The notes beneath the pieces were generated by a model. The model was not told the origin of the DNA. It ran no database searches and saw only the letters and a program-made list of their open reading frames with translations. A stretch of DNA of 64,000 bases from a virus (lineage: Duplodnaviria > Heunggongvirae > Uroviricota > Caudoviricetes): the IMG/VR virus record IMGVR_UViG_2721755711_000002; one strand, given 5' to 3'. Positions 41,772 to 64,000 of the stretch are shown here, in pieces. Each line of letters starts with the position of its first letter. Within the stretch, counting starts at the first letter, position 1. A program made the position numbers and the translations under genes.

Positions 41772-41773
41772 GC

Positions 41774-49125: not shown

Positions 49126-49126
49126 G

Positions 49127-49399
49127 TTACCTCCAGATCCGTTGCTGGTATGTGCGGGATGGACGCGGTGGGCGTTCGGAGTAAGGAAGCCTGACGGAGA
49201 TTATCCAGTGACGATAATCGAGGCTGAGGGCTTTCCTAAACTCATACCCACGTCTGCGGTAGTTCTGTATCAGCCATTCGGCCTGTTCTTCAGTGCAGGG
49301 GGCATGCTGATACCAGTCATATTTGAATGTGTGAGAACGCCGCCCTTGCCTGCTGGCAGGGGCGGTATCAGAATTGTGATGTTTGGTATTGTGCGCCAT
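49127..49399 (-). CDS. Hypothetical nin-region protein
   Basis: 90 aa basic protein. Confidence 0.35.
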   Translation of the reverse strand: MAHNTKHHNSDTAPASRQGRRSHTFKYDWYQHAPCTEEQAEWLIQNYRRRGYEFRKALSLDYRHWIISVRLPYSERPPRPSRTYQQRIWR

Positions 49400-49516
49400 C
49401 GGTTTTCTCTGCTGGCGCAGCAGGTGCCAGTTGTTCAGGCTGGCCTGTGGATTGTAAACCAGAATACGTAAAACAAAAAACCCGCCGAAGCGGGTCTGGT
49501 TATTGATGAATTAACT

Positions 49517-49777
49517 TCACGGTTTGGGCTGGAAATTCTTATTCAGCGCTCTGCACTGCTCTTTGTCTTCTTCTTCATGGGCTTTAAATACAGAATAAGT
49601 ATCAGGGTCAAAAAACGAGATAGATTCTACTTCCCTCTTGGCTACAAGTATCCGAAAGTCTTCAAGGCTAAGGCCGCCAAGACCTTCCGCTACAATTCCT
49701 TCTGACTGATAATGTCGGCGGTAGTTTGTTGTGATGTTTGTAGTTAACGTACCCTTATCCCGATACCCGATACCCAC
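49517..49777 (-). CDS. Hypothetical protein (possible C-terminal continuation of 49755..50342)
   Basis: AT-rich; 23-nt overlap with upstream ORF. Confidence 0.25.
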   Translation of the reverse strand: MGIGYRDKGTLTTNITTNYRRHYQSEGIVAEGLGGLSLEDFRILVAKREVESISFFDPDTYSVFKAHEEEDKEQCRALNKNFQPKP

Positions 49778-50342
49778 TCAACAGCGGAAGAAGTTCAATA
49801 TGGGTAAAATCGCCGTTTTCAAAACTTGGGCAGATAACAATTCCAACGTAAAATTTTCTGGATGAGAGTGTTATAATGACGGGAAACTGCCTGACTGCTG
49901 CTTCCATAAGGAAGCTCTCTTCTGGACTTGTGGAAACAATTCTTGCGATAGCATCCAACCTGCGATCCCCTTTCTCTGTTCTTTTTTTGCGCCGCCAACC
50001 GCAAAATGCAGCAAGAGCAACAGATGTCATTCCCCAGACTGCAGATTTAAGATCCTTTATCGAATTTCCTCCATCAAAAGAGATAGGAAAAACTCTTTTC
50101 AGGGCATCAGGACCAAGATGAAAAAAATGCAGAATACCGTTAATCAACCAGCGGTATACCCCAAGGAAACCAAGGATCGTACAAACAACCCACGCAACAC
50201 AGACAAAAACAGCTCCCCAGGTTGCAACAAAAAAATAAGCGTCCCATCCCACAGAACGCTTATACCTATATCTTGTTTCCAAACAAAGAGTAACATAAAC
50301 ATAACCACTAATCAGTATGACAGCGATCAATAGCGTATTCAT
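49755..50342 (-). CDS. Membrane protein (AT-rich cargo gene)
   Basis: Three N-terminal hydrophobic helices; overlaps ORF 49517..49777 in another frame (possible frameshift or two genes). Confidence 0.35.
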   Translation of the reverse strand: MNTLLIAVILISGYVYVTLCLETRYRYKRSVGWDAYFFVATWGAVFVCVAWVVCTILGFLGVYRWLINGILHFFHLGPDALKRVFPISFDGGNSIKDLKSAVWGMTSVALAAFCGWRRKKRTEKGDRRLDAIARIVSTSPEESFLMEAAVRQFPVIITLSSRKFYVGIVICPSFENGDFTHIELLPLLSGYRVSG

Positions 50343-50344
50343 TC

Positions 50345-50551
50345 TTACCCTAGCTTTTTGTTTTCCAATGACTCAAGCTTGTCCAGCTGTTCTTTGATAG
50401 CCTTTCTGACCTTGTCGTTCTCAAGGTTAACCATGATGAAACCATCGTCGCTTACTTCGAACTTATCCTTGTTTTCTTTAAGAACTTTTGACAACCTGTT
50501 CGATGGTGTCTGTATGGTTCCATACCCTCTTATTGCATATGCGAGACTCAT
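50345..50551 (-). CDS. Hypothetical small protein
   Basis: 68 aa, Lys/Glu-rich. Confidence 0.3.
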   Translation of the reverse strand: MSLAYAIRGYGTIQTPSNRLSKVLKENKDKFEVSDDGFIMVNLENDKVRKAIKEQLDKLESLENKKLG

Positions 50552-50797
50552 TCTTACCTCCCATCTTACCGTTATCACCGTGTAGTGACACTGTTACATC
50601 CATGTATAAATGCTTTGATACTATGGCTATACCATTAAAATAAGTTTACCGGAAGACTTTGATCAACTACTTTTCACACCAGATACACAAATAATGTGAA
50701 ACACAACATAGAAATTGTCAAAACCGCCGGGTGGCGGGTGCGTTGAGGATGCCTGACACATCAGAGGTGGCGAGGGATTTCTCCCCCGCCAGGTCTC

Positions 50798-50953
50798 TTA
50801 CTCCTCAGATTCGTAAGCTGTGAAGACAGCGACCTCCGTCTGGCCGGTTCGGATTCGTACCTCGCAGAGGTCTTTCCTCGTTACCAGTGCCGTCACTATG
50901 ACGGTTAAACAGATGACGATCAGGGCGATTAACATCGCCTTTTGCTGCTTCAT
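50798..50953 (-). CDS. hok: Hok/Gef family type I toxin
   Basis: MKQQKAMLIALIVICLTVIVTALVTRKDLCEVRIRTGQTEVAVFTAYESEE; in-frame leader upstream (mok-like) and GC-rich stem-loops downstream. Confidence 0.8.
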   Translation of the reverse strand: MKQQKAMLIALIVICLTVIVTALVTRKDLCEVRIRTGQTEVAVFTAYESEE

Positions 50954-51243
50954 AGCCTGCTTCTCCTTGCCTTTCGGCACGTAAGAGGCTAACCTACATG
51001 TGTTCAGCATGGATTGAGCCTCAGATTAATGTTAAGCGTCTTGCAGGACGCGTAATGTTAACTGGGGCTTTTCTCTATCTGCCGTTGGTGTTCATGCCCG
51101 AGGCAGATAGCCTCAAGCACCCGCAGCAATTCTACTTAACTCTCCTTTTCCCGCAAACCGTTTTTATCCCCATCGGCAAATCGAATACACCACCAGCGCC
51201 ACCGCCATCGCAATTCCTACCGTTGTGAATGCTTCGGGCCAGG

Positions 51244-51807
51244 TCATCGCAAAACATCCTCCGCACTTATCAGTTCGTTCCGCTTCAGGTAGTCCATCGC
51301 CTTATCCGGCAATTTACAGTCCGGCTTCACTTTCTTCAGTTGACTGACCAATTGCTTAACCAGCATGGTTAATTCGTCAGTCTGTTTGCCTGGTACTGGT
51401 GGATTGTCGGTTGTACCATGACTGGCAGTACAGTTGGCACTTCCTCCCTTCTCCTCCCGCAGCGGTTCAGGCAACGCATCCAGTGATGCTTTCACAAACC
51501 ACGCTGCCTGTACTATAACGCCATGAATCCAGCGCAAATCAGCATCGCGATCGTTCTTTTTCATCTTTTCACCACTTAAAGCCTGGCTTATGTGGCTGCG
51601 AACCAGGTCTTCATGTAACTCCTTCGCATCCTCAATGGTGAAACCACCAGGCAGGCGAGCCGGAGTTACCGGAGAGTTGCCAGCCTTACGCATGGCCATT
51701 TCCACGATTTCAACCATATCTCCTGGTGGAATTTTACAAAGTTGCCCAATACATTTCTGCTGCCTGGCATATTCGAGAATGTGTTCCAGTTTGGTTCGAT
51801 TAATCAT
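51244..51807 (-). CDS. Hypothetical nin-region protein
   Basis: 187 aa. Confidence 0.35.
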   Translation of the reverse strand: MINRTKLEHILEYARQQKCIGQLCKIPPGDMVEIVEMAMRKAGNSPVTPARLPGGFTIEDAKELHEDLVRSHISQALSGEKMKKNDRDADLRWIHGVIVQAAWFVKASLDALPEPLREEKGGSANCTASHGTTDNPPVPGKQTDELTMLVKQLVSQLKKVKPDCKLPDKAMDYLKRNELISAEDVLR

Positions 51808-52397
51808 TATTTATCTCCCTTAAGCATGGTGGCGCGGCAGGCGTTCCAGCCATCAGCATATGTTTCAGTTACACCGTCGAGATGGCAGGTAAGCAAATCC
51901 ATTTCATCCGGCACTATCAGCACCGGCTGGACAGTGACATTGGCAAAGGCAGCACGCAACCCGGCCTTAATTTCCTCTACCTCATCAGCACTTGGAGATG
52001 AGTCTGACAGTGCATGATGGAATGCGTAAGCCATGTCGTCGTTTACTGCAACCGGCTCTGCTTCCAGTGATACCAGTGCAATCTGCGTCCTGACCCACGC
52101 CACCCGCTCCGGATTCATATGGCACATGTTGTTCCCTTTTTCTTCATAGTAATGCCCTTTACTCTCGTTAAATGGCAACACCTCATTCAGCCCGGCACTT
52201 CTGAAATCAGCGTGTAATTGTTCCAGTGCCGCTTCGCTGGAGGTACCGATTGATGTGAGATAATCGAAAAGATTGGCGCATAAACCATAATTTCGAGAAA
52301 ACACCCCACCTGGTTTCGCCCCATTACTCAGCCACAAATCATAAGCAATATAAAACCCGTAAAGCTGTTTTCTGATATTTTCTTTGGTTTCTTGCAT
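51807..52397 (-). CDS. Hypothetical nin-region protein
   Basis: 196 aa. Confidence 0.35.
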   Translation of the reverse strand: MQETKENIRKQLYGFYIAYDLWLSNGAKPGGVFSRNYGLCANLFDYLTSIGTSSEAALEQLHADFRSAGLNEVLPFNESKGHYYEEKGNNMCHMNPERVAWVRTQIALVSLEAEPVAVNDDMAYAFHHALSDSSPSADEVEEIKAGLRAAFANVTVQPVLIVPDEMDLLTCHLDGVTETYADGWNACRATMLKGDK

Positions 52398-52528
52398 TAT
52401 TTATTACCGCCCTTTCTGGCGGCCTCCTGGTGTTCTGAGGGTGCAGGAATCCCTCCGGTTAAGGATTTAATAAAATTCACTTCTGCTTTAAATTTTTCAG
52501 TGTTTTGTTGTCAGGTGTTTTATCGCCT

Positions 52529-52840
52529 TTATGCTTCAGCCTTATTTCTCAGCCATACACAAACAGGACCATCTTCAGTGTCATGAATGGAACCAATGAA
52601 CCAGCCTTCACCTTCCGGGCGCTCCGGTTTCCAGGAGGCAATATCGGGACCATCTGCGTCCAGATTAAAATCATCTTCATCCATAGTTCTGATGGTCCAT
52701 TGAAGATTATTTTCCTCCATCCATGCGTTAAACTCTTCCGTTGAAATATGTTCTCTACCATCACAGAATTTTTCATATTCAGGATGCGTCCAGCAGCCAT
52801 ATGTATCACGTTCTACCGGCATTTCTTTGATTTCGTTCAT
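52529..52840 (-). CDS. Hypothetical protein
   Basis: ~103 aa acidic protein. Confidence 0.3.
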   Translation of the reverse strand: MNEIKEMPVERDTYGCWTHPEYEKFCDGREHISTEEFNAWMEENNLQWTIRTMDEDDFNLDADGPDIASWKPERPEGEGWFIGSIHDTEDGPVCVWLRNKAEA

Positions 52841-53032
52841 AACATTAACTCCATTAAAATAATGCAAAACACATTAACCACACCACTACAACCGATGCTA
52901 TTAACACCCTGATTGCAAACAGTGGACTGATATGTCGAAAAGGATTTTCCCAGATAATAAAAGCCGCTGCCAGAAATGCACTGTTCAGGAATACAATAAC
53001 AAACAGCTCAATTTTGATTATCCAGAACATAT

Positions 53033-53329
53033 TCACTGCATCGCCTTCTGTAAAATAACCGCATGCCCCAGTTTCTCCGCCAGTGCCAGTTCTGCCTTAG
53101 CACCTGCCGACCGCTGCCAGCCATTCAGCATATAAATCGCATCCACGCAACGTATCATCGCCATGCAGATATCCATGTACTGCAACTGAGTCAGTCCGTC
53201 CGGAAGTACTGCCGGGTTTAAGACGGTATGCCCTTCACGTTTCAGTTCCTCTTCCGCCTTGTGAAACGCCTCACGGTTGAAATTTTTATATCCCGTCATT
53301 GGGCCAGCAATATAAACTCTCACCCTCAC
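53033..53329 (-). CDS. DUF4406-like protein (nucleoside deoxyribosyltransferase-like)
   Basis: N-terminal VYIAGPMTG motif. Confidence 0.55.
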   Translation of the reverse strand: MRVRVYIAGPMTGYKNFNREAFHKAEEELKREGHTVLNPAVLPDGLTQLQYMDICMAMIRCVDAIYMLNGWQRSAGAKAELALAEKLGHAVILQKAMQ

Positions 53330-53661
53330 TCCTGAACTCTCCTGTCGAAATAAACGTAGTTATTCACTGTGCGCAACGGCATTCCAAATTTTATGGCGAT
53401 TTCTCTCCTGGACACGCCACGCTGATGCAGTTGTCGCGCCAGCTCAATATCGCTCTGAAGATATTTTGCTGACTGGTGAAAATCACCACGCAGAATCAGA
53501 CTTATTCCCATCTCCCGGGCTTTCGTCCTGACAGCCGCCTCACTACGACCAATCAGACTGCCGATGCTTTTTACCTTCATTGTTCCCGCGCACTGCCGCA
53601 GAATAAGGATTTCAGCCCGCACCCAGCCACGCCATCTCACTTCACATCCTCTCTGGAACAA
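53326..53661 (-). CDS. Hypothetical HTH-like protein
   Basis: Two HTH-like segments. Confidence 0.3.
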   Translation of the reverse strand: MFQRGCEVRWRGWVRAEILILRQCAGTMKVKSIGSLIGRSEAAVRTKAREMGISLILRGDFHQSAKYLQSDIELARQLHQRGVSRREIAIKFGMPLRTVNNYVYFDRRVQE

Positions 53662-54422
53662 TTCATCTGCCGTACAATATCCCGGTGCTTGTTAAGCTCC
53701 CGCAGCGCCGCGCAGACTCGCTCCCACTTCCGGACATGATTTTTCGCCCGACGCAGTTCGCGGTTTGCCATGTGCAGCGATGGTAAAATCAGGTCATTCG
53801 CACGCGTTTCGGTAAACGATGGCAGCGACTGCACAATGTCCGCCACAGTTTCTGTTTTAATATCTTCCTGTGTTGCAACCTCCTGTACTGGTAACGCAAC
53901 CCCCGCTGGCTGAGGAAAGGCTTTACCATCAGTTTTCGCTACCGATACAAATTTCGGCTCTGCTGGTAAATTTTCCCCGGTTTCTTTTACCAGCATCCAC
54001 TTACACCCCTTCCCCTGTCCCAGCTTAATCGCCATGCCATCGCGGCAAAGCTTTTCCATCGCAGAAACCAGCGACCTGACGCAATCAGCACGCCCCACAG
54101 CAATTGCAATCTCAGCGGTGGTCATTGCCCCACCATGAGCAAGTGTGGACAGGATGTCGCAGCGATTCAGTGGCTCACGGTCTTTTCTGCTGACCACCAT
54201 GCGGGATTTTCTTTCCGCTTTACACACCGGCACTGTTTTTTCTTTCACGCCACTTTGTCGTTCTGAAACAGACCAGTAACCATTAACCGATACAACTTCT
54301 CCCTGCTCTTCGTACTCCCGCAACATTTTAATCGCCTCAGCCGGTGCAATGCCCAAACTGGTAGCAAGCTCAGTGCACGTCACCTTTTGCATCGCTTTTA
54401 ACGTATCAATCAACGTTTCCAT
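53637..54422 (-). CDS. Putative replication protein at lambda P position (winged-helix repeats; not lambda P-like)
   Basis: Directly downstream of O-like gene; no ATPase motif seen. Confidence 0.35.
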   Translation of the reverse strand: METLIDTLKAMQKVTCTELATSLGIAPAEAIKMLREYEEQGEVVSVNGYWSVSERQSGVKEKTVPVCKAERKSRMVVSRKDREPLNRCDILSTLAHGGAMTTAEIAIAVGRADCVRSLVSAMEKLCRDGMAIKLGQGKGCKWMLVKETGENLPAEPKFVSVAKTDGKAFPQPAGVALPVQEVATQEDIKTETVADIVQSLPSFTETRANDLILPSLHMANRELRRAKNHVRKWERVCAALRELNKHRDIVRQMNCSREDVK

Positions 54423-54467
54423 TAAAATTTCTCCCGTTAAAAATTATTTACCAATCTCAAACAAAAC

Positions 54468-55433
54468 TTACCCCCTGAACCCTGGTGGAATTTCGGTGTC
54501 CGGTTCAGAAATGTGATTCACACAACGCTGCGCGGGACCACGCCACAGTCGAATAACCAGCTCATCCCATTTTTCACGGAGTTTTTCCGGGCTCTTGATG
54601 TTTTTTATCCAGAACGGATCCCGTTGTGCCCGACTGAACATTTCGCAAATTTGTCTGTGACTTCTTCCATCCAGCATCCGCATTGTGCGCACATCATTGG
54701 CCCACGTAGTCCAGTTGGGCTCTTTCGGTCGCGTGATCTCACCATCATCGCTCGCAGCCTGCTCGTACAGGTTTAAAACCCGCCCCCAGATCCACTGCGC
54801 ACACGTCAAATCCTCCCGGGTTCCCCACTGGCGTTTTTTTACACTGAACACAGCTGCGTCAGGATGGCGGGTTAAAAACTCCTGTTCAGCCGTCTGCTCG
54901 TCCGGTTGCGAAGCGTCCGGACAAGAGAGTTTTTTATTCTCTGTAGTAATCTCTGTTGTATTCTCTGTAGGATCATCGGGCCATTTTGACCTGATGACAT
55001 TGGGTCGTTTTGAACCAATGGAGTGTGTCATTTTGGCATCTTCCATCGTGTCATTTTGACCTGATGGAGCGGCGCATTTTGACCTGATGGATTCGCTCAA
55101 TTTGCCATCATCTAAAAGCTTGCTCTCGTAATTGATCGTGTAGAAATTAGTCATATCGCGCTTTGATTTATTGAGCTTTTCGCAACGCAAAAGCCCCAGC
55201 GTTTTCAGACTTGCAAATGCACGTTTTAACGTTGACTCTGACCAGAACGGGAACTGTTCCAGCCATTGTTCCGTTGTGTTATAAATCCAGCGAACACCAT
55301 CACATTCCATGCCGGAACTGGTATCTCTCAACCAGTAATGCAGCTGCTGCAACACGATGGCTTCGTTCAGACCAATTTTCATCGCCAGCTGCGTGTTTAT
55401 AACCAGCGGGCGTTCAGCAAAAAGGAGCTTCAT
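54468..55433 (-). CDS. Replication initiation protein, lambda O-like
   Basis: C-terminal WGTREDLTCAQWIWG...WANDVRTMRMLDGRSHRQICEMF...SPEKLREKWDEL parallels lambda O. Confidence 0.75.
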   Translation of the reverse strand: MKLLFAERPLVINTQLAMKIGLNEAIVLQQLHYWLRDTSSGMECDGVRWIYNTTEQWLEQFPFWSESTLKRAFASLKTLGLLRCEKLNKSKRDMTNFYTINYESKLLDDGKLSESIRSKCAAPSGQNDTMEDAKMTHSIGSKRPNVIRSKWPDDPTENTTEITTENKKLSCPDASQPDEQTAEQEFLTRHPDAAVFSVKKRQWGTREDLTCAQWIWGRVLNLYEQAASDDGEITRPKEPNWTTWANDVRTMRMLDGRSHRQICEMFSRAQRDPFWIKNIKSPEKLREKWDELVIRLWRGPAQRCVNHISEPDTEIPPGFRG

Positions 55434-55453
55434 CCCACCCCCATAACACGTTA

Positions 55454-55879
55454 TCAATGCGCGACCACGGCATTTCCCGCCGGGCCGCCACGATTCATCT
55501 GATTGAAACCAGCAATCGCCACTGCGACAAAATCATCAGCGTCTCTCACCAGTCGTTCCCGCGTCTCCACCAGTTCCCGAAACCAGGCTGAACTGTGGCT
55601 GCGCATTCGGGCCACCAGCAGAGGTGGCATTGCTTTTTCGATCGCTGGTAACAACGCCTGAATTTTTTTAACCGCATCAGGAGTGTCTTTCTCCACCCAG
55701 CGGAAAATTTTCTGGGTGTTACGGCCCAGGGCTTCCGGATGGCTGTCGTCGTACAATTCCGGGAACGTCATACCGAGTTCGAAATACGCTTTGGTAATTT
55801 TCGCAGCCGGTACTTTCTCGCCGTCTGGATGCGCCCAGGCATTCATCGCCATGCGGATGTGTTCATGCTTGATTTTCAT
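55454..55879 (-). CDS. Putative CII-like regulatory protein
   Basis: Position between cro-like gene and O-like gene. Confidence 0.35.
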   Translation of the reverse strand: MKIKHEHIRMAMNAWAHPDGEKVPAAKITKAYFELGMTFPELYDDSHPEALGRNTQKIFRWVEKDTPDAVKKIQALLPAIEKAMPPLLVARMRSHSSAWFRELVETRERLVRDADDFVAVAIAGFNQMNRGGPAGNAVVAH

Positions 55880-56135
55880 GAATCAACTCCGGCGCATTTG
55901 ATGTGTTAACCTTACATCCAACAGGTAAACCGTCGGTTGGGTTAGGGTATTTATCAGGGCGCAATTCATGCGGAGTCACTCCCCAGCCAAGCGCCTCACA
56001 TGCTGGAATGACCTCCTCCGCAGGAACTCGTTTTTTAAACCACCCACTTATAGTTTGTGGAGTTTTACCAAGACGACGCCCTAACTCTGATTGGCTCATT
56101 ATCGACAGGATTTTCACTTGAGTACTTTTTTGCAT
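55863..56135 (-). CDS. Cro-like HTH regulator
   Basis: HTH SQSELGRRLGKTPQTISGW; divergent from repressor; RBS ggaggg. Confidence 0.55.
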   Translation of the reverse strand: MQKSTQVKILSIMSQSELGRRLGKTPQTISGWFKKRVPAEEVIPACEALGWGVTPHELRPDKYPNPTDGLPVGCKVNTSNAPELIHENQA

Positions 56136-56147
56136 GTTTCCCTCCAA

Positions 56148-56255
56148 ACTTTACGATGGCACCGATAATTACAAATTTAATTTTAATTTTCAACTTCTAT
56201 TTGTAATGCCACTTATCAATTTTTTCTGTAGGATTGCAGGATTAGTTTTCGAGGG
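56148..56255. promoter_or_regulatory. Divergent promoter/operator region (OR-like)
   Basis: Perfect 9-bp inverted repeat attacaaat (56168-56176) / atttgtaat (56200-56208); same acaaatttaat core as OL-like site. Confidence 0.5.
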
Positions 56256-56261
56256 GTGGTG

Positions 56262-56654
56262 ATGATCTTTGTAAAACGCCTTCAGCAGGTGTTGCAGGAA
56301 TTGAATATAAACCAGTCAGAGCTGGGAAGACGTCTTGGTGTAAAACCCCAATCCGTGCAAGGTTGGTTGAAAGGCGTGATGCCAAGAATGGATAAATTGG
56401 AAAAATTAGCAGAGCTCTCACAACATCCCGTCCATTGGTTCTTTATGGAAGAAGAAACTCTCGGCGATAAGATGGCTGTATCCAGTAATGACAACCAACC
56501 GCAACTTACAGAACAACAACGAAAAATCATATCGCTTTTAGATGAGTTACCTCAAAGCGACGCAGAGCAGATCATTCGGGATATGGAGCAAAAACGCGAT
56601 TTCTATAAACGCAAACTTGAAGAGTTACTGCGGCAGAAAAACAAAACTGCCTGA
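56262..56654 (+). CDS. Prophage repressor (CI-like, HTH; no peptidase domain)
   Basis: HTH NQSELGRRLGVKPQSVQGW; divergent from cro-like gene. Confidence 0.6.
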   Translation: MIFVKRLQQVLQELNINQSELGRRLGVKPQSVQGWLKGVMPRMDKLEKLAELSQHPVHWFFMEEETLGDKMAVSSNDNQPQLTEQQRKIISLLDELPQSDAEQIIRDMEQKRDFYKRKLEELLRQKNKTA

Positions 56655-56700
56655 TGCGTTCCTTTTCTGGAACGAGCATCAGGCAAATGACTAACAGATT

Positions 56701-57060
56701 TTATAATCCCACCAGGCTTTCCAAGGGGATACCAAATTGATTATGAAGACGGCGAATCATTGGTAACGTAAGGCTTCTGGTGCCATTCAACACCTCGTAA
56801 ACCCGATTTTTTTTTCCAATTGCGGGTTCCAAATCTTTCACGGTCAGCCCCTGCTGTTCCATGCGAAATCTTATAGCTTCAATTGGGGATGGTGGCTCAA
56901 TGGGATAATGTTTTTTTTCATATTCCGCTATTAGCAAACACATCACCTCAAAGAAATCCCCCTCAGGCGTGTTAATTTCCGGCTCATTGTCGAACATGGG
57001 CTCAACAGCACGCAACGCGGCTTCATAATCTTGCTCTGTACGAATAGGTTTGATGTTCAT
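56701..57060 (-). CDS. higA: Antitoxin HigA (HTH)
   Basis: 119 aa, C-terminal HTH; directly downstream of HigB-like toxin. Confidence 0.7.
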   Translation of the reverse strand: MNIKPIRTEQDYEAALRAVEPMFDNEPEINTPEGDFFEVMCLLIAEYEKKHYPIEPPSPIEAIRFRMEQQGLTVKDLEPAIGKKNRVYEVLNGTRSLTLPMIRRLHNQFGIPLESLVGL

Positions 57061-57062
57061 GC

Positions 57063-57365
57063 TTACTCCAGTTCAATGGTATCAGCATCAATGGCATCGT
57101 ATTCCTTGTGGTTTCCGATGAATTTAACAAATACCCATCCTCGCTGATACGCAATTGCAACAATTAAACGGTAATGATTACCTTTTATGTTGAATACCAC
57201 GCGCCGGTTTTTCAATATACTGGCCGTTCGGTATTGTGCCTTAATGTCTGCCGGGCTTTTCCAGTCAGCCTTTGCTGCCTCATCCACCCATGCCCTTAGC
57301 GGTTGTTCTGCATCGGGATTCTCCGCCCAAAAATCCCTAAGCGTTTTAACTGAGATGATCTTCAT
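57063..57365 (-). CDS. higB: Toxin HigB (RelE/ParE superfamily)
   Basis: 100 aa; ...NIKGNHYRLIVAIAYQRGWVFVKFIGNHKEYD resembles HigB C-terminus; toxin-first order. Confidence 0.7.
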   Translation of the reverse strand: MKIISVKTLRDFWAENPDAEQPLRAWVDEAAKADWKSPADIKAQYRTASILKNRRVVFNIKGNHYRLIVAIAYQRGWVFVKFIGNHKEYDAIDADTIELE

Positions 57366-57399
57366 AACTGTATGGTAGTCCCATTTCGGGACTAATGCA

Positions 57400-57470
57400 A
57401 TCGGCCTCAGCTACAAATTTAATGATAAATATATTGACCAATTAAATTTTAATTTGTAGATTATACTCAC
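57400..57470. promoter_or_regulatory. OL/pL-like operator-promoter for rightward early operon (and/or higBA control region)
   Basis: Inverted repeat ctacaaatt (57411-57419) / aatttgtag (57451-57459) flanking TTGACC (57434-57439), TAGATT 17 bp downstream. Confidence 0.45.
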
Positions 57471-57640
57471 CAACCAACTCCCCGCCCCACAGAACGCAGG
57501 GCAATACTTCGAGTTACCAGGCAGTGGTCAGGGGTTAAGTAGCCAGCCCGAGGCGTAAGAACATGACGGCAGGGTTCAACTTTAACTATGCAGCAGGTTT
57601 TTGTTCCGCCACCCCGGCGTTAAAGGGAAATGAGGTCAGC

Positions 57641-57793
57641 ATGGATACTATCGATCTTGGCAACAACAAATCTCTGGTATACGGCGTGTTTCCAAACCAG
57701 GACGGTACGTTCACCGCGATGACGTATACCAAAAGCAAAACGTTTAAAACCGAAGCTGGCGCGCGTCGCTGGTTAGCCAGAAATACTGACTGA
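57641..57793 (+). CDS. Small early protein
   Basis: 50 aa from M27 of ORF 57563..57793; first gene after pL-like promoter. Confidence 0.3.
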   Translation: MDTIDLGNNKSLVYGVFPNQDGTFTAMTYTKSKTFKTEAGARRWLARNTD

Positions 57794-57804
57794 TGAGGTT
57801 AACG

Positions 57805-58440
57805 ATGGAATTTAAAGACTTACCGCTATCAATCCAGGAGATTGCAGCACACACACTACGTCAACATCTGAACGAAGCTATGGCTGAATCTGCAAAGAAA
57901 GAAACCATTGATAACATGGCTCGTAATGTGCACGATGCGTTTACCGGATTGTATTTCTGTGCGTCTGTAAATAAACACGACCCAGAGAGTGTGGCAAAGA
58001 AAATTGCAGAAACGACAGTGCAAAACATCAATACGAAACAAACCGAAGACGAAATTGACCAGCCTGCCAGTGAACAAAAGAAAGAAAAATCGCCATATGC
58101 GGGGAACATGTTTGTTTATGACAAACTTATCCGAATTCGTGGCGAAATTCCGACTGAATACCTGGCAAAAATTCACCAGGCATTACTTAAAAATCTGGAA
58201 ACGGAAGTATTTGATGGCAACACCAACGGCTCCTTCGTGGTGTCAGCCCTCACAAAAGAGTGGGATACAGATAATCGCCGGAATGTTGCTACATGGTTAT
58301 TCAGCAACAAAGCTGCTGCCCTGGAAGCTGCGGCCTGTATTTGCGACCTGCTAAGGACAGACCGCAAATACAACCTGGATGTGTATAGCTATATTTATGC
58401 TGAACACTATCCGCTCTGGATTGACTGGTTTAAAGGGTAA
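57805..58440 (+). CDS. Hypothetical early protein
   Basis: ~211 aa. Confidence 0.35.
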   Translation: MEFKDLPLSIQEIAAHTLRQHLNEAMAESAKKETIDNMARNVHDAFTGLYFCASVNKHDPESVAKKIAETTVQNINTKQTEDEIDQPASEQKKEKSPYAGNMFVYDKLIRIRGEIPTEYLAKIHQALLKNLETEVFDGNTNGSFVVSALTKEWDTDNRRNVATWLFSNKAAALEAAACICDLLRTDRKYNLDVYSYIYAEHYPLWIDWFKG

Positions 58441-58602
58441 CACCTGCGGGACCGAGCCGACCAGCACCACGATTATTTTATCCTCCATTAAGGGGTGAAT
58501 TAAAAATGGAGACCAACACGCTGCTACGTGTGGTCGTGCGCCGGACACGGATAACCTTCCGGCATGCTCTTTAACAATCTGGATATCCACAACAGCAATA
58601 AC

Positions 58603-59121
58603 CTACGGATTGCTGCTCAATGCTCTACCTATCTCTTCTTCAGATGGGGGCGGTATATAGTCATCATTGCGTTCAAATTTAAAGCGCGAATCACATTTCA
58701 GGCATTTAGAAATATGGAACTTATCATGCTCACCAATTTCAACAGGTTGAAGTATTGCTATTACACCATGCTGATAGCAATTGGGACAGGCATAGTAAAA
58801 ACATGTGTCTTCTTCGTCGAGGCTGTTCCTGAAAGCATAGACAAAATGCCCAAAACCAGTTTTGTGTATCGTATAGCATTCAAGTTTTCGATTACGCTCG
58901 TCAATTTCATGACATTTTTGCTTAAGCAAGAGTATTTCCTCGTACTGAAGCGCGAGCGTTTTCGCTAGCTCTGCGTTCTGTATTTGTAAGTCTGCCAGTT
59001 GGCGACGCATTTCGTAGACAGCCTTTTCACGTTCAGATTGGCTTTTTGCATCAAGTATTACCTGTAATAAATCAATCGAGACTTTAATTGCCGTTATTGA
59101 TGAAGTTATTCCAGATAGCAT
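58603..59121 (-). CDS. Coiled-coil protein with C-terminal Cys-rich zinc-finger-like motifs (cargo gene, opposite strand)
   Basis: CPNC...CLKC motifs; AT-rich; antisense to early operon; start uncertain. Confidence 0.35.
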   Translation of the reverse strand: MLSGITSSITAIKVSIDLLQVILDAKSQSEREKAVYEMRRQLADLQIQNAELAKTLALQYEEILLLKQKCHEIDERNRKLECYTIHKTGFGHFVYAFRNSLDEEDTCFYYACPNCYQHGVIAILQPVEIGEHDKFHISKCLKCDSRFKFERNDDYIPPPSEEEIGRALSSNP

Positions 59122-59656
59122 TCTTAACTCTCTTTGTTGTTGGGGTATCCGGATTATACAAATTTCTTGTCGTTGGGGAATGACGGAAACCACCTCGCCT
59201 GACGTGGTTAAAAGCAGGCACACAACGCGAAAGCGCACGGCGAAGGTTTCTTTTCCTTAGAAGGCTTGTCGTTAGATTTCTTCGACCGTGCACTTCCGGT
59301 TGTGGCAATCCGCGAAATGGCGCGGCGGTAAGTATGGCGGGTTATCCTTACCCCCATTGTGGCACCGGGTTGGCAGGTTGACCATACGCTTAAGTGACAA
59401 CCCCGCTACAACACTCCATGTTGATTTGTACCTTTGGCGGCATCAGTTTCATTGCTGGCTGATGTCCGCCCTTTTTAAAGTGAATTTTGTGATGCGGTGA
59501 ATGCGGCTCAGCGCACGCGGAACAGTTAAAAAGCGATTAGTTCCCCCGTATCGGGTGTTTATGGGTTCCCTGTATCCGGCGTTAATTGTTAACTGGTTAA
59601 CGTCACCTGGAGGCACCAGGCACCGCATCACAAAATTCATTGTTGAGGACGCGATA

Positions 59657-59845
59657 ATGGAAACGTTATTACTCAATTCCACTACGCCTGAAACTCGTTT
59701 TGAAATTGGCGTTATCACTGGCGATAAAACTTTTATTGAGGATGCCATTAACCAGATAAAGCATGAGCCGGATTCATTAAATAAGGTTTGCATTGTTTCA
59801 ATGATGGCCCGTTCACGCCTGATGCAAAAAGGATACTGGCAATGA
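59657..59845 (+). CDS. Small hypothetical protein
   Basis: 62 aa; RBS gagga. Confidence 0.3.
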   Translation: METLLLNSTTPETRFEIGVITGDKTFIEDAINQIKHEPDSLNKVCIVSMMARSRLMQKGYWQ

Positions 59846-60045
59846 ATACCACATTTGCACTTGTTCTGACGGTTTTTCTTGTTTCCGGTGAACCAGTTGA
59901 CATGGTTACTGGCGTATACAGCTCAATGAAAGAATGCATGGCTGCCGCAGATGAACAGAAAATTCCCGGTAACTGTTATCCGGTCGATAAAGTTATTCGC
60001 ATGGATAATAACGAAGTCCCGGCAGGACTTAAAACAGCACCGTAA
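59842..60045 (+). CDS. Small secreted/membrane protein
   Basis: N-terminal hydrophobic segment; ATGA coupling to upstream ORF. Confidence 0.35.
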   Translation: MNTTFALVLTVFLVSGEPVDMVTGVYSSMKECMAAADEQKIPGNCYPVDKVIRMDNNEVPAGLKTAP

Positions 60046-60122
60046 TTAATATCCGGTTTCATTTTTATATGTCAGAAATGGCAGGGATTTGTTCACCCTA
60101 AAAATAGTTACGAGGTTTATCA

Positions 60123-62579
60123 ATGAGCGCTGATAAAGAAGAAATTGCACTATATTACGAAGCCAAAAATGACAAAGTCAGAAAACGCCTTGGGATTAAA
60201 GGCGGTTTTTACTGGCGCACAGCAAAAAAATTATCGGTTGCAATATCACGCGGTGTTGTCGCAATGGACGATGCCGGATTTGACGAAGAGGATTTTAAAA
60301 AACCTGTTCGCGTCCATTTACCCATTGTGAATGACCTTCCTCCGGAAGGCGTGTTTGATACCGAATTCTGCAATCGATACGAAAAAGGCGGGGAAGATGG
60401 TATAACAATGGTATTTATTGAGACATCTCACTCTGCGCAGGACAAACCAGCCAGCACTGACAATACCAACGTCAACGGCGAAGACATGACGGAGATTGAG
60501 GAGAACATGCTCCTGCCGGTTTCAGGTCAGATTCTGCCTGTTCGATGGCTGGCACAGCACGGCAGCGAAAAACCGATCACACACGTTTCGCGGGACGAAC
60601 TGCGCGCATTACATAACGCACAGGATGAAAAACTTCCCGCCGTTACCGCTCTGGCCATCTCAAATAAAGCAGCGCAACTCGAACCGCTGGAAATTCGCGA
60701 TCTCCACAAACTGGTTCGTGACACGGACAAAGTTTTCCCTAATCCTGGTAATTCAGACCTGGGACTGATGACTGCTTTTTTCGAAGCATACCTGGGCGCT
60801 GACTACACCGATCGCGGTCTGCTGACAAAAGAGTGGATGAAAGGAAATCGTGTTTCACGCATTACCCGCACGGCTTCCGGTGCTAATGCCGGTGGAGGAA
60901 ACAAAACCGATCGCAATCCTAATTTAGTACACACCTTCGATACGCTGGATGTGGAGATTGCAGCGGCCACACTTCCGATGGATTTTAATATTTATGAAAT
61001 TCCGGGCAGCGTTTATCGTCGCGCAAAAGAAGTCGTCCGGAAGAAAGAAAGCCCGTTCAAAGAATGGTCCGCAGCACTTCGCGCAATCCCGGGTATCCTG
61101 GATTATTCCCGCGCCGCTATTTTTGCGCTTATCCGGAGCGCACACCCTGAATTTTATCATTACCCGGGACGCCTTCAGGGGTATATCAACGCCTACTTAA
61201 CGGAGACTGATCACGAGAACCCCAGCAAGGAAACTCTCACTGCTGCACGACATACACCGGAAAAAGATATCCTGGAAGAAGTTAACCGCGAGCTGGCTGC
61301 CGGGCAAGAAACAGAAGAAGAAAAAAATGATGAAGAAAAACCGCAACCGTCTGGCGTACTGGCAGATGAACAGGCAACGGCTGAAACAATGGAACCGGAT
61401 ACAACTGAACATCGCCAGGACACGCAATCGCTGGATACTCAGGAACAGGTAGATCCAGTTAATCAGGTGAAAGTTACCGCTGACGAAGTAAACAAAATTA
61501 TGCAGGCAGCCAATATCGGCCAGCCTGACGCCGATAAGTTGCTTGCGGCCTCTCGCGGTGAATTTGTTGCAGGGATTAGCGACCCGAATGATCCGAAATG
61601 GGTGAAGGGGATTGAAACCCGCGATTCAGTGAATCAGAACCAGCAAGAAACGGAACAGAACGACCAGAAAGCGGAACAAAACAGCCCAAATGCGTTACAA
61701 AACGAGCCAGAAACGAAACAACATGAACCAGCAGCGCAACAGGAACCGGAAAAAGCCTGCACCGTCTGCGGTCAGACCGGCAGCGGCAACTTCCCTGATT
61801 GTGGCGCGGTGATGGGCGACGCAACATACCTGGAAACATTCGATGAAGAGAATCAGGTTGAAGTTCAGGAAAATGATCCGGAGGAAATGGAAGGCGCTGA
61901 ACATCCACACAAGGAGAATGCTGGCAGCGCTCAGGACCACGCCAGCGATAATGAAACTGGCGAGGCGGCAGATCACTCAATTAAGGTGAACGGTCATCAC
62001 GAAATCACATCCACCAGCAGGACGTGTGACCATCTCATGATCGACCTCGAAACCATGGGAAAAAATCCTGATGCCCCGATTATCTCAATAGGTGCAATAT
62101 TTTTCGATCCGCAAACCGGAGATATGGGACCGGAATTTAGTAAGACTATCGATCTGGAAACTGCTGGCGGAGTCATTGATCGGGACACCATTAAATGGTG
62201 GCTGAAGCAATCACGCGAAGCGCAATCTGCCATTATGACCGATGAAATCCCGTTAGATGATGCACTGTTACAATTGCGAGAATTTATCGACGAAAACTCC
62301 GGTGAATTTTTTGTTCAGGTCTGGGGAAATGGAGCCAACTTCGACAACACGATTTTGCGCCGTTCATACGAACGGCAGGGGATCCCCTGCCCGTGGCGTT
62401 ACTACAACGATCGCGATGTACGCACAATTCTTGAACTGGAAAAAGCCATAGACTTCGATGCCAGAACGGCTATTCCATTCGAAGGCGTACCCCACAATGC
62501 GCTGGACGATGCCCGTCACCAGGCAAAACAAGTTTCAGCTATCTGGCAAAAACTGATCCCGAGTCAGGCTGATTTTTAA
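60123..62579 (+). CDS. Large early protein, RecE-like N-terminal region with C-terminal DEDDh-type 3'-5' exonuclease-like domain
   Basis: 818 aa; C-terminal motifs [25 protein letters not shown]; N-terminal block [17 protein letters not shown]...[10 protein letters not shown] resembles RecE as recalled. Confidence 0.5.
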
Positions 62580-62643
62580 TGTTCAACCCCGGTCGTCGCC
62601 CACCAGCTATAGTGGTGGCGACCATGATTAGCGAACGACGCTC

Positions 62644-62892
62644 ATGGCAAGACTTATTCTGCTCACTGAGTGGGCAAAAGAGGAATTCAGCGATCCGGTC
62701 CCGACTCCGGGCACGTTAAGTAAATACGCTAAAGCCGGAATGATATTTCCTCTCCCCAAAAAAGTTGGAAGACACTGGCGAGTGGATCCACGAGCTCGCT
62801 TTGTCGGAATGGTAAACAAGCCGGAGGTGATCGCCACAGATCACCCTGCTTTGAAGAGGATACTGGAAGATGGCGCGCCCGCGAAAATATAA
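62644..62892 (+). CDS. xis: Excisionase (Xis-like)
   Basis: 82 aa immediately upstream of and overlapping int; LTEW...FPLP pattern like lambda Xis. Confidence 0.55.
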   Translation: MARLILLTEWAKEEFSDPVPTPGTLSKYAKAGMIFPLPKKVGRHWRVDPRARFVGMVNKPEVIATDHPALKRILEDGAPAKI

Positions 62893-64000
62893 AACCGAAG
62901 TTCCGGGACTATCTCCGTATTTTGACAAAAGAAATAACAAAGTTTACTGGCGTTACAGGCATCCCATAACAGGCAAAAATCACGGTCTCGGCAGTATTGA
63001 CCAGAAACTGGCAGAAACTATTGCAGCAGAAGCGAACAGCCGTCTTGCCAGGCAGCAAATGGAACAAATGCTCAGTCTGCAGGAGAAAATTATTAATGAT
63101 ACCGGCGGTTCATCAACCGTTTCCATTTTTCTGAATAATTACAGAAAAATTCAACAGGAAAGATATGAAAACGGAGAGATCAAACTCAACACGCTGAAAC
63201 AAAAAGCGGCCCCTCTCAGGGTATTTGATGAACGTTTTGGCACCAGACCGTTAGATGCCATAACTGTAAAAGATGTGGTATCGGTGCTGGAAGAGTACAA
63301 GGCCAGAGGACATAACAGAATGGGGCAAATTTTCAGGAAGGTACTGATCGATGTTTTCCGGGAAGCTCAGCAAACAGGCGATGTTCCGCCAGGCTTTAAC
63401 CCTGCAGAATCGGCAAAAAAACCGCAGGTGCGGATATCAAGACAGCGACTGACTTTTGATGAGTGGATGATGATTTATAACGCAGCGGAAAAGGATGGTT
63501 ACTTTTTACAGCGCGGCATGCTGCTGGCACTGATGACAGGCCAGCGCCTTTCAGATATTTGCAAAATGCAATTTTCGGATATCCGGGATGGTTATCTTCA
63601 TGTCGAACAGCAAAAAACAGGAACCCGGATTGCCATCCCTCTTGCTCTGCGTTGCAATAAATTAAATCTCACCCTGGATGATGTGGTGTCATCCTGTCGC
63701 GATTGCGTTCTTAGTCCGTGGCTATTGCACCACCATCATGCGAAAGGGACAGCCAAGCGCGGCGGGATGGTTAAGCCAGCAACGTTAACAGTTGCATTTA
63801 AAAAAGCGCGGGATTCTGTAGATTACAACTGGTGCGCTAATGGTACCCCACCCTCTTTCCATGAACAGCGATCATTGTCGGAGCGCTTGTTCAGGGAGCA
63901 AGGGATCGACACCCAAATTTTGCTGGGCCATTCGAATCAAAAAATGACCGATATTTACAACGATGCACGTGGTAAGGAGTGGAAAAAACTGGTCATTTGA
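62870..64000 (+). CDS. int: Tyrosine integrase, lambda Int family
   Basis: Strong similarity to lambda Int including C-terminal LLGHSNQKMTDIYNDARGKEWKK; stop at window end. Confidence 0.9.
   Translation: MARPRKYKTEVPGLSPYFDKRNNKVYWRYRHPITGKNHGLGSIDQKLAETIAAEANSRLARQQMEQMLSLQEKIINDTGGSSTVSIFLNNYRKIQQERYENGEIKLNTLKQKAAPLRVFDERFGTRPLDAITVKDVVSVLEEYKARGHNRMGQIFRKVLIDVFREAQQTGDVPPGFNPAESAKKPQVRISRQRLTFDEWMMIYNAAEKDGYFLQRGMLLALMTGQRLSDICKMQFSDIRDGYLHVEQQKTGTRIAIPLALRCNKLNLTLDDVVSSCRDCVLSPWLLHHHHAKGTAKRGGMVKPATLTVAFKKARDSVDYNWCANGTPPSFHEQRSLSERLFREQGIDTQILLGHSNQKMTDIYNDARGKEWKKLVI

What the first reader, a model, noticed from the sequence alone, without database searches (positions are those of the whole stretch)
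60123..62579. RecE-like large early protein with DEDDh-type exonuclease motifs and no RecT/Bet partner
The 818-aa protein upstream of xis-int has an N-terminal region resembling RecE (as recalled), but its C-terminal ~180 aa carry DnaQ-like motifs ([25 protein letters not shown]) rather than a lambda-exo-like nuclease. No annealing-protein gene is present between it and xis.
Basis: partly seen in the sequence, partly recalled or inferred. Interest (0 to 1): 0.5.

Follow-up and report, generated by a model that had tools for sequence, protein, structure and literature searches.

The report
RecE-like prophage protein with 3'-5' exonuclease

Summary
The observation and the interpretation both hold. 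ORF 60123-62579 (+) encodes 818 aa. Residues 58-620 are 56% identical to RecE residues 50-591 of the K-12 Rac prophage. Residues 637-808 are a DEDDh 3'-5' exonuclease (Pfam PF16473, E 2e-66; D641, E643, D741, H791, D796). The closest solved fold is phage T4 DexA. The RecE PD-(D/E)XK nuclease is absent.

Only 64 nt separate the gene from xis-int. No RecT, Bet, Erf, Gam or Abc2 homologue was found in the window.

The gene is ordinary. The exact protein is already in public assemblies. The DEDDh segment occurs in 4047 of 5426 complete E. coli genomes, against 1730 for the RecE nuclease segment. The fusion is kept across at least ten enterobacterial genera, always just upstream of xis-int and without an annealing protein. 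Phage Tritos, prototype of a published "nuclease only" lambdoid class (Genome Res 2025), carries the same domain.

The prophage is rich in Chi sites (18 found, about 2 expected; 14 on the late-gene strand), as that class predicts. It therefore probably relies on host RecBCD/RecA.

What the exonuclease does is still not established. The rivals are DNA-end trimming, anti-phage exclusion (EcD-like) and RNA degradation.

The parts
60123..62579 (+). 818-aa chimeric exonuclease gene: RecE-family N-terminal module, acidic linker, DEDDh 3'-5' exonuclease domain
   Evidence: ORF. Pfam PF06630 plus PF16473. The exact protein is on record with the same precomputed architecture.
60294..61982 (+). Region homologous to RecE residues 50-591 (aa 58-620). 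It includes the PF06630 match (aa 56-189) and the most conserved core (aa ~228-345, DRGLL...IRSA).
   Evidence: BLASTP 56% identity to K-12 RecE. tblastn 60294-61982. NCBIfam NF007259 matches model positions 1-602 of 877 only. dN/dS 0.096 for aa 1-395.
61308..62012 (+). Acidic, low-complexity linker (aa 396-630; 23% D+E). It contains a degenerate zinc ribbon, [16 protein letters not shown] (aa 546-561, nt 61758-61805).
   Evidence: Composition and motif position. dN/dS about 1.0. AF2 pLDDT below 50. The segment is largely absent in Enterobacter and Citrobacter homologues.
62031..62546 (+). DEDDh (DnaQ/DexA/Rv2179c-like) 3'-5' exonuclease domain, aa 637-808. Catalytic residues are D641, E643, D741, H791 and D796.
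   Evidence: PF16473 E 2e-66. Invariant residues. AF2 pLDDT 85.6. Foldseek top hits are T4 DexA 8KEL/8KEN with TM 0.75, then RNase T, Orn and DnaQ. dN/dS 0.088.
62644..62892 (+). Excisionase, directly downstream after a 64-nt gap
   Evidence: PF07825 and phrog_629
62870..64000 (+). Lambda-type tyrosine integrase; the 376-aa ORF ends at the last base of the window
   Evidence: PF09003 and PF00589. In other assemblies the same integrase lies next to ompW.
59501..60045 (+). dicB (DicB domain = aa 53-114 of ORF 59501-59845) and a ydfD-like DUF1482 gene (59788-60045), immediately upstream in the same operon
   Evidence: PF05358 and PF07358. Same order in E. coli, in K-12 Qin and in phage Tritos.
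59423..59471 (+). DicF-like sRNA upstream of dicB (sub-threshold match)
   Evidence: Rfam RF00039, 38.7 bits against a gathering score of 48, E 2e-6. Terminator-like hairpin at 59439-59466.
56256..56654 (+). DicA/CI-like HTH repressor at the head of the early-left operon
   Evidence: PF01381 and phrog_8
16331..62607 (.). Span holding the 18 Chi sites (GCTGGTGG): 14 on the - strand (late-gene strand) and 4 on the + strand
   Evidence: One search found 18 sites; shuffles gave 1.97 +/- 1.37 with a maximum of 7.

Best explanation
Shown: the gene encodes a chimeric protein. The N-terminal module of RecE (exonuclease VIII), about 400 aa of folded and conserved sequence plus an acidic linker, is joined to a DexA/Rv2179c-type DEDDh exonuclease domain. 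That domain takes the place of RecE's PD-(D/E)XK 5'-3' nuclease. The gene is the last one of a Qin/PPompW-type early-left operon (repressor ... dicF-like, dicB, ydfD, exo, xis, int). It is the only recombination-type gene in a prophage that has no annealing protein and no RecBCD inhibitor but many Chi sites. This is the published 'Tritos-type' nuclease-only module.

Inferred: after induction or infection the protein acts as a Mg2+-dependent 3'-5' exonuclease on DNA 3' ends. The RecE-type N-terminal module brings or holds it at whatever structure or partner that module recognises in RecE. It does not work as a RecET- or Red-like exonuclease/annealase pair. The phage instead relies on host RecBCD-Chi/RecA recombination, and the exonuclease trims 3' ends or flaps, or degrades competing DNA. 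Both the substrate and the benefit to the phage are untested.
For: Architecture.

No partner in the window: tblastn with RecT, Bet, Erf, lambda Exo, Gam, Abc2 and the RecE C-terminus found nothing. Pfam and PHROG scans of the early-left and early-right ORFs showed no annealing-protein family.

Family-wide: 23 fused loci (685-833 aa) from about ten enterobacterial genera had their neighbourhoods examined, out of about 26 found. All have exo directly before xis/int. None has RecT, Bet or Erf by tblastn. A Pfam census of 130 upstream ORFs gave YdaT, DnaT, lambda P and HTH families but no annealing-protein family.

Purifying selection acts on both folded modules (dN/dS 0.096 and 0.088) but not on the linker (about 1.0).

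DNA rather than RNA: the nearest sequence and fold relative is the T4 DNA exonuclease DexA. Stand-alone homologues sit next to SSB, AAA_24 (Sak4-like), Rad52-like, ERF and RdgC genes.

Chi: 18 sites against about 2 expected, 14 on the late-gene strand. This matches Table 1 of PMC12315714 for phage Tritos (nuclease +, SAP -, SSB -, anti-RecBCD -; 7-21 top-strand Chi). The Tritos 823-aa exonuclease is nearly identical to the window protein over aa 448-817, DEDDh domain included.
Against: No biochemical or genetic data exist for this protein or any fused homologue. Searches for ydfE, PF16473 and Rv2179c+prophage returned nothing.

3'-5' DnaQ-like exonucleases usually inhibit rather than promote homologous recombination, as PMC12315714 itself notes. 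A pro-recombination role is therefore not obvious.

The function of the N-terminal module is unknown. AF2 could not model it and no solved structure is related to it.

Pfam names the family after an exoribonuclease. An E. coli DexA homologue (EcD) was reported as an anti-T4 defence nuclease (PMC12153337).
Confidence: 0.6

Rival explanations
1. It is an anti-phage exclusion nuclease. The DexA-like domain would degrade the modified (for example 5hmC) DNA of superinfecting T-even-type phages, as reported for the E. coli DexA homologue EcD ('HREX').
For: The C-terminal domain is closest in sequence and fold to T4 DexA. PMC12153337 reports that plasmid-borne EcD protects E. coli from T4 and digests T4 DNA but not unmodified DNA. 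The EcD forward primer encodes MIDTET, so EcD starts right at the Exo I motif, like the stand-alone MIDLET forms here. The domain is prophage-borne and present in 75% of complete E. coli genomes, up to 7 copies.
Against: The gene lies deep in the repressor-controlled early-left operon, between dicB/ydfD and xis-int. It is not a separately transcribed, opposite-strand insert like the HigBA pair nearby. No promoter-like site above chance precedes it. It has no PADLOC match. The residue aligned with DexA W152, reported as needed for 5hmC recognition, is Tyr761 here, and the D169 equivalent is ambiguous. The conserved RecE-type N-terminal module is left unexplained. The EcD sequence could not be retrieved for comparison.
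Confidence: 0.15
2. It is an exoribonuclease, like the founding family member Rv2179c. It would trim or degrade RNA 3' ends (host or phage transcripts, sRNAs) during lytic growth.
For: The Pfam family is named the Rv2179c-like 3'-5' exoribonuclease domain. NCBI names many members '3'-5' exoribonuclease'. Fold neighbours include RNase T, oligoribonuclease and REXO2.
Against: The best sequence and fold match is the DNA exonuclease DexA. The domain replaces a DNA exonuclease on the RecE scaffold. Stand-alone homologues are embedded among DNA-transaction genes: SSB, Sak4-like, Rad52-like, ERF and RdgC. Database names are propagated by homology and were not tested.
Confidence: 0.12
3. It is a canonical RecE-type recombination exonuclease whose annealing partner is encoded elsewhere or is unrecognisable.
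For: Many depositors annotate it 'exodeoxyribonuclease VIII'. It shares about 560 aa with RecE. Two unknown ORFs lie upstream: 215 aa at 57793-58440 and 211 aa at 58603-59238 on the - strand.
Against: The RecE nuclease domain is absent, and the NCBIfam equivalog scores 896 bits against a cut-off of 1269. From prior knowledge, RecE residues ~588-866 alone support RecT-dependent recombination, and that region is missing here. No annealing-protein family appears in 23 fused loci. The unknown upstream ORFs are not conserved across the fused loci of other genera, where no + strand ORF of 140 aa or more lies between the repressor and exo in most loci.
Confidence: 0.03
4. It is a decaying, non-functional fusion left in defective prophages.
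For: K-12 Qin carries an IS-truncated remnant, the ydfE pseudogene. Shigella, Leclercia and Scandinavium loci have broken copies.
Against: The window ORF is intact. dN/dS is about 0.09 in both folded modules. The catalytic residues are invariant. The fusion is conserved across genera at 40-47% overall identity. It is present in isolated phages such as Tritos and vB_EcoS-640R1.
Confidence: 0.03

Closest known systems
RecE (exonuclease VIII) of the Rac prophage, E. coli K-12
   Same: The N-terminal roughly 560 aa are homologous (56% identity, aa 58-620 against RecE 50-591), including the PF06630 region, the conserved DRGLL...IRSA core and the acidic linker. The position is the same: in the early-left operon upstream of xis-int of a YdaS/YdaT-type lambdoid prophage.
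   Different: The catalytic domain is not homologous. RecE has a PD-(D/E)XK 5'-3' dsDNA exonuclease at residues ~600-866; this protein has a DEDDh 3'-5' exonuclease. RecE is followed by recT (and ralR/rcbA); here xis follows after 64 nt. One Cys of the RecE zinc ribbon is Phe here.
The 823-aa exonuclease of phage Tritos, and the 'Tritos-type' Rec module (nuclease only) of PMC12315714
   Same: Same operon order: dicF-dicB-ydfD-exo-xis-int. The linker and DEDDh domain are nearly identical (aa 448-817). There is no SAP, SSB or anti-RecBCD gene. The genome is Chi-rich.
   Different: The first roughly 270 aa of the Tritos protein do not align with the window protein, and aa ~270-447 align only weakly. 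Its E. albertii orthologue L005 shows 36% identity over window aa 200-400. The window protein has the RecE-like PF06630 N-terminus, so the two are mosaic variants.
Phage T4 DexA (exonuclease A; PDB 8KEL/8KEN) and its E. coli homologue EcD
   Same: DEDDh fold: TM 0.75, profile E 3e-15. The catalytic D/E/D/H/D residues align.
   Different: Identity is only 22-26%. DexA and EcD are stand-alone proteins of about 180-230 aa without a RecE module. DexA carries extra loops. DexA W152 aligns with Tyr here. [quoted passage not shown]
Rv2179c (M. tuberculosis), founder of Pfam PF16473
   Same: Same Pfam family, matched over the full profile with E 2e-66.
   Different: Rv2179c is a stand-alone chromosomal exoribonuclease. 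It was not recovered in the PDB sequence or fold searches made here.
Stand-alone prophage DEDDh exonucleases (180-235 aa) of Enterobacterales, Aeromonas, Vibrio and Pseudoalteromonas
   Same: They are 41-74% identical to the C-terminal domain. They are often the last gene before int in an early-left operon.
   Different: They have no RecE module. Many sit beside DUF2303, SSB, Sak4-like, Rad52-like, ERF or RdgC genes, whereas the fused form has no such neighbours.

Membership tests
RecE / exodeoxyribonuclease VIII (NCBIfam NF007259 equivalog) | N-terminal Exonuc_VIII region (PF06630) and the RecE middle region | tested here: met
   PF06630 E 4.8e-29. 56% identity to RecE 50-591.
RecE / exodeoxyribonuclease VIII (NCBIfam NF007259 equivalog) | C-terminal PD-(D/E)XK 5'-3' exonuclease domain (RecE ~600-866) | tested here: not met
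   BLASTP and tblastn give no alignment to RecE 591-866. NF007259 matches model positions 1-602 of 877 only.
RecE / exodeoxyribonuclease VIII (NCBIfam NF007259 equivalog) | Whole-protein score above the curated equivalog cut-off | tested here: not met
   896 bits against a cut-off of 1269
RecE / exodeoxyribonuclease VIII (NCBIfam NF007259 equivalog) | Adjacent RecT-type annealing protein | tested here: not met
   xis follows after 64 nt. No RecT, Bet or Erf in the window or in 23 fused loci.
DEDDh (DnaQ-like) exonucleases, Rv2179c/DexA subfamily (PF16473) | Profile match above the gathering score over the full domain | tested here: met
   223.5 bits against 27; profile positions 2-177 of 177
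DEDDh (DnaQ-like) exonucleases, Rv2179c/DexA subfamily (PF16473) | Exo I (DxE), Exo II (D) and Exo III (Hx4D) catalytic residues | tested here: met
   D641, E643, D741, H791 and D796 are invariant in the family alignment. They align with D7, E9, D119, H186 and D191 of a T4-type DexA.
DEDDh (DnaQ-like) exonucleases, Rv2179c/DexA subfamily (PF16473) | RNase H-like alpha/beta fold of DEDD exonucleases | tested here: met
   AF2 pLDDT 85.6. Foldseek: DexA TM 0.75, RNase T about 0.7, Orn about 0.7.
DEDDh (DnaQ-like) exonucleases, Rv2179c/DexA subfamily (PF16473) | Mg2+-dependent 3'-5' exonuclease activity | not testable with these tools
   Needs an enzyme assay
HREX / EcD-type 5hmC-DNA-specific defence exonuclease (PMC12153337) | Residues reported for 5hmC recognition (DexA W152 and D169) | tested here: inconclusive
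   W152 aligns with Tyr761 (most homologues have Trp). The D169 region aligns ambiguously.
HREX / EcD-type 5hmC-DNA-specific defence exonuclease (PMC12153337) | Protection against T4-type phages and selectivity for modified DNA | not testable with these tools
   Needs plating and nuclease assays. No PADLOC model matches.
'Tritos-type' lambdoid Rec module (nuclease only; PMC12315714 Table 1) | Nuclease gene in the early-left operon with no SAP, SSB or anti-RecBCD gene | tested here: met
   The Tritos nuclease shares the same DEDDh domain.
'Tritos-type' lambdoid Rec module (nuclease only; PMC12315714 Table 1) | Four or more Chi sites on the late-gene ('top') strand | tested here: met
   14 on the - strand (late-gene strand) and 4 on the + strand; about 2 expected in total

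The most novel reading that the evidence does not exclude
The RecE N-terminal module may be a nuclease-independent adaptor with a function of its own. It is a narrow family of 153 clusters at 50% identity. It occurs with a 5'-3' PD-(D/E)XK nuclease, with a 3'-5' DEDDh nuclease, or with no nuclease at all. In the Chi-rich, annealase-less phages, the DEDDh version might use this module to reach host RecBCD/RecA recombination intermediates or DNA ends and edit their 3' tails. That would be a phage-encoded modulator of host Chi-dependent recombination rather than a recombinase.
Probability: 0.2. Interest if true: 0.6.

Novelty: already known. Interest (0 to 1): 0.3.

Why it matters
The gene family is among the most widespread prophage genes in E. 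coli. Its DEDDh segment is in 75% of complete genomes, more than twice as many as canonical recE. Many deposited phage records, and the IMG annotations seen here, still call it 'exodeoxyribonuclease VIII', which implies a 5'-3' RecE activity and a RecT partner that it does not have.

The correct reading has three practical uses. It prevents wrong inference of RecET-type recombination capacity in prophages. It supports the view that a large class of lambdoid phages relies on host RecBCD-Chi recombination. It also identifies the long-unexplained N-terminal 600 aa of RecE as a separable module.

No experiment on the fused protein was found, so its role (DNA-end trimming, exclusion of modified-DNA phages, or RNA processing) remains an open but tractable question.

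Tried and rejected
(1) AF2 of the full-length protein with a 22-sequence alignment. The N-terminal 633 aa came out below pLDDT 50, so nothing could be learned about the RecE module. The three homology searches returned mostly near-identical partial or Citrobacter sequences, so a deeper admissible alignment could not be built.

(2) A profile of 51 diverse proteins containing the N-terminal module, searched against PDB sequences: no match up to E = 1.

(3) PADLOC scan of the exonuclease and six unknown early ORFs: no match.

(4) Literature searches for ydfE+exonuclease, PF16473 and Rv2179c+prophage found nothing. One search ('full-length RecE') was wasted because word-start matching hit 'receptor'.

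(5) The EcD sequence (HAK9828821.1) could not be obtained. Only the cloning primers are in the supplement. The forward primer encodes MIDTET. The reverse primer could not be put in a clean reading frame, so the EcD C-terminus and its relationship to this domain remain undetermined.

(6) Promoter and terminator scans around the gene did not exceed chance.

(7) The upstream unknown ORFs (215 aa at 57793-58440; 211 aa at 58603-59238, - strand) were considered as cryptic annealing proteins. This was rejected as unsupported: they have no Pfam match, only unknown-function PHROG matches, and they are not conserved in fused loci of other genera.

(8) Decay was considered and rejected on dN/dS and cross-genus conservation.
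Full report
**Observation**

ORF 60123-62579 (+) is intact and encodes 818 aa, with GAGG 9 nt upstream of the ATG.

Pfam finds two domains:
- PF06630 (Exonuc_VIII) at aa 56-189, E 4.8e-29.
- PF16473 (Rv2179c-like 3'-5' exoribonuclease) at aa 637-808, across the whole profile, E 2e-66.

The NCBIfam RecE equivalog NF007259 matches only its positions 1-602 of 877. It scores 896 bits, below its cut-off of 1269. BLASTP against K-12 RecE gives 56% identity between aa 58-620 and RecE 50-591. Nothing in the C-terminus aligns.

**The C-terminal domain**

- In an alignment of 15 homologues, D641, E643, D741, H791 and D796 are invariant (residue numbers). This is the DEDDh signature.
- They align with D7, E9, D119, H186 and D191 of a T4-type DexA.
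- The only solved structures found by sequence are T4 DexA 8KEL/8KEN: E 1.4e-6 with the single sequence and 3e-15 with the profile.
- An AF2 model of the domain is confident (pLDDT 85.6).
- Its best fold matches are DexA (TM 0.75), followed by RNase T, oligoribonuclease and DnaQ domains.

Membership of the DEDDh 3'-5' exonuclease superfamily, DexA/Rv2179c subfamily, is therefore established at the sequence and fold level. Activity and substrate are inferred.

**The partner question**

xis (62644-62892) starts 64 nt after the stop codon, and int follows it. Upstream, the operon has this order:
- a DicA/CI-like repressor;
- an opposite-strand HigBA pair;
- ydfA (DUF1391);
- two unknown ORFs;
- a sub-threshold DicF-like sRNA;
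- dicB;
- a ydfD-like gene;
- the exonuclease.

This is the arrangement of the K-12 Qin prophage, whose ydfE pseudogene is an IS-truncated remnant of this gene type.

tblastn of the window with RecT, the RecE C-terminus, RalR, RcbA and RacC found nothing except the RecE N-terminal match. Adding lambda Bet, Exo and Gam and P22 Erf and Abc2 also found nothing. Pfam and PHROG scans of the early-right ORFs show O-like replication, DUF1627, RusA, DUF968/HNH, Q and a methylase. No annealing protein appears.

**How common it is**

- The exact protein is already in two NCBI assemblies and one Logan assembly, next to ompW, with PF06630 + PF16473 as its precomputed architecture.
- By megablast, the full gene is covered at 80% or more in 1273 of 5426 complete E. 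coli genomes. PGAP calls it 'exonuclease' or '3'-5' exonuclease'.
- The 570-nt DEDDh segment alone is in 4047 of 5426 genomes, up to 7 copies per genome.
- The nuclease segment of canonical recE is in 1730 genomes.
- Four isolated phages carry full-length copies at 88-89.5% nucleotide identity, and many others carry the C-terminal half.
- By tblastn, the domain occurs in 1631 phage records, including the T4-like dexA genes.

**Family-wide anatomy**

A scan of one genome per species returned 80 loci. About 26 encode long fused proteins (685-833 aa). They come from Escherichia, Dryocola, Buttiauxella, Pluralibacter, Klebsiella, Enterobacter, Scandinavium, Atlantibacter, Citrobacter, Kosakonia and Phytobacter. 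About 50 loci encode stand-alone 176-295-aa proteins.

In the 23 fused loci whose neighbourhoods were examined:
- The gene is followed directly by xis/int.
- There is no RecT, Bet, Erf, lambda Exo, Gam or Abc2 within 10 kb.
- In most of them no + strand ORF of 140 aa or more lies between the repressor and the exonuclease.
- A Pfam census of 130 upstream ORFs gave YdaT (20), DnaT (13), lambda P (13) and HTH families, but no annealing-protein family.

The stand-alone forms differ. Within 2.6 kb upstream they have DUF2303 (12), SSB (7), RdgC (3), AAA_24/Sak4-like (3), Rad52-like (2) and ERF genes. tblastn found Erf in four of these loci and Abc2 in one. This places the domain family in DNA-transaction modules rather than RNA metabolism.

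Against an E. coli orthologue (95.4% nucleotide identity), dN/dS is 0.096 for aa 1-395, about 1.0 for the acidic linker and 0.088 for the DEDDh domain. This is a single pairwise comparison.

**The N-terminal module**

Its conserved core (aa 195-400) has only 153 cluster representatives at 50% identity among 1.84 billion proteins. By local HMM and phmmer searches, about 14 of them carry the DEDDh domain, about 22 carry a RecE-type nuclease, and 51 long ones carry neither. Pfam sees only PF06630 in that last group, apart from one RecT match and one weak DUF3799 match.

E. coli also has 670-675-aa versions with the same N-terminus and only a short hydrophobic tail. These probably correspond to the 'RecE-2' proteins without a nuclease domain mentioned in PMC12315714.

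The Tritos and E. albertii 823-aa proteins share the linker and DEDDh domain but have a different N-terminal third. The protein is therefore a mosaic of exchangeable modules. The structure of the N-terminal module could not be modelled, and it has no relative in the PDB.

**Literature**

PMC12315714 (Genome Res 2025) analysed 325 lambdoid phages. It reports the following:
- A functional type with prototype Tritos (4 phages) has a nuclease but no SAP, SSB or anti-RecBCD gene, and 7-21 top-strand Chi sites.
- Phages without their own recombination system are Chi-rich, and RecBCD aids their growth.

Tritos has the order dicF-dicB-ydfD-exo(823 aa)-xis-int. Its exonuclease is nearly identical to the window protein over aa 448-817.

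I tested the Chi prediction on this window. It holds 18 Chi sites against 1.97 +/- 1.37 in shuffles (maximum 7). All are inside the prophage, 14 of them on the late-gene strand. The prophage therefore fits the Tritos class.

PMC12153337 (NAR 2025) reports that T4 DexA switches substrate with temperature. It also reports that EcD, an E. coli DexA homologue, digests 5hmC DNA and protects against T4. The EcD sequence could not be compared with this protein.

**Mechanism**

Shown:
- the domain architecture;
- intact catalytic residues;
- purifying selection on both folded modules;
- the operon position;
- the absence of an annealing protein and of a RecBCD inhibitor;
- the Chi enrichment.

Inferred:
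- The protein is made after induction.
- It removes nucleotides from DNA 3' ends.
- The RecE-type module localises it.
- Recombination-dependent growth is left to host RecBCD-Chi/RecA.

The rivals are ranked in the Rival explanations section: an EcD-like exclusion nuclease, an RNase, a RecE with a hidden partner, and decay. None is excluded by experiment.

**Verdict**

The feature, however, is a very common, database-annotated gene type that the literature catalogued in 2025. The remaining interest lies in its untested function and in the modular RecE N-terminus.

Noticed in passing
window 16331-62607: Chi (GCTGGTGG) is strongly over-represented: 18 sites against 1.97 +/- 1.37 in shuffles. All 18 lie inside the prophage, 14 of them on the - strand (late-gene strand). 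None is in the host-like first 14 kb. This fits the published Chi-rich class of lambdoid phages without their own recombinase.
   Followed up: yes
window 59423-59471 (+): A DicF-like sRNA lies upstream of dicB. It scores 38.7 bits, below the Rfam gathering score of 48 (E 2e-6), and overlaps a terminator-like hairpin at 59439-59466. An STnc100-like match (35.3 bits) follows at 59473-59676.
   Followed up: partly
window 56701-57365 (-): A HigB toxin / HigA antitoxin pair is inserted on the opposite strand between the prophage repressor and ydfA. It looks like an independently acquired insert.
   Followed up: no
window 61758-61805 (aa 546-561): The CxxC...CxxC zinc ribbon of RecE (CNACGQTGGDNCPDCG) reads [16 protein letters not shown] here, so the third Cys is Phe. 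The whole segment is missing from Enterobacter and Citrobacter homologues, so it is probably dispensable.
   Followed up: partly
proteins P0191 and P0127 (E. coli), related to window aa 1-~615: A third variant of the RecE N-terminal module exists. It is 670-675 aa long and ends in a short hydrophobic tail (…VVIAAVYGLCANPAGIASAPLIPGIAMMIANKL…) with no nuclease domain. It probably corresponds to the 'RecE-2' proteins of PMC12315714.
   Followed up: partly
window 58603-59238 (-) and 57793-58440 (+): Two unknown ORFs sit in the early-left region. One is a 211-aa protein on the opposite strand, with two CxxC pairs (CPNC, CLKC) near its C-terminus (phrog_1244). The other is a 215-aa protein (phrog_2151). 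Neither has a Pfam or PADLOC match.
   Followed up: partly
window 50948-51122 (-): A sok antitoxin RNA scores 113.5 bits, which points to a hok/sok-type toxin-antitoxin locus in the early-right (nin-like) region.
   Followed up: no
window 62589-62625: An inverted repeat (GGTCGTCGCCCACCAGC / GTGGTGGCGACC) lies between the exonuclease stop codon and the xis start codon. It contains one of the - strand Chi sites (62600-62607) and has no T-run after it.
   Followed up: no
loci L013-L080 (stand-alone homologues): Stand-alone DEDDh exonucleases in other prophages often lie just downstream of a DUF2303 (YfdQ-like) gene (12 loci). Others lie near SSB, RdgC, Sak4-like, Rad52-like or ERF genes.
   Followed up: partly
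window 19548-19632 (+) and 45117-45189 (-): There is an Rfam sRNA-Xcc1 match (72.4 bits) in the late region. A tRNA-Gly(TCC) lies about 1.8 kb downstream of the antiterminator Q gene (47015-47710).
   Followed up: no
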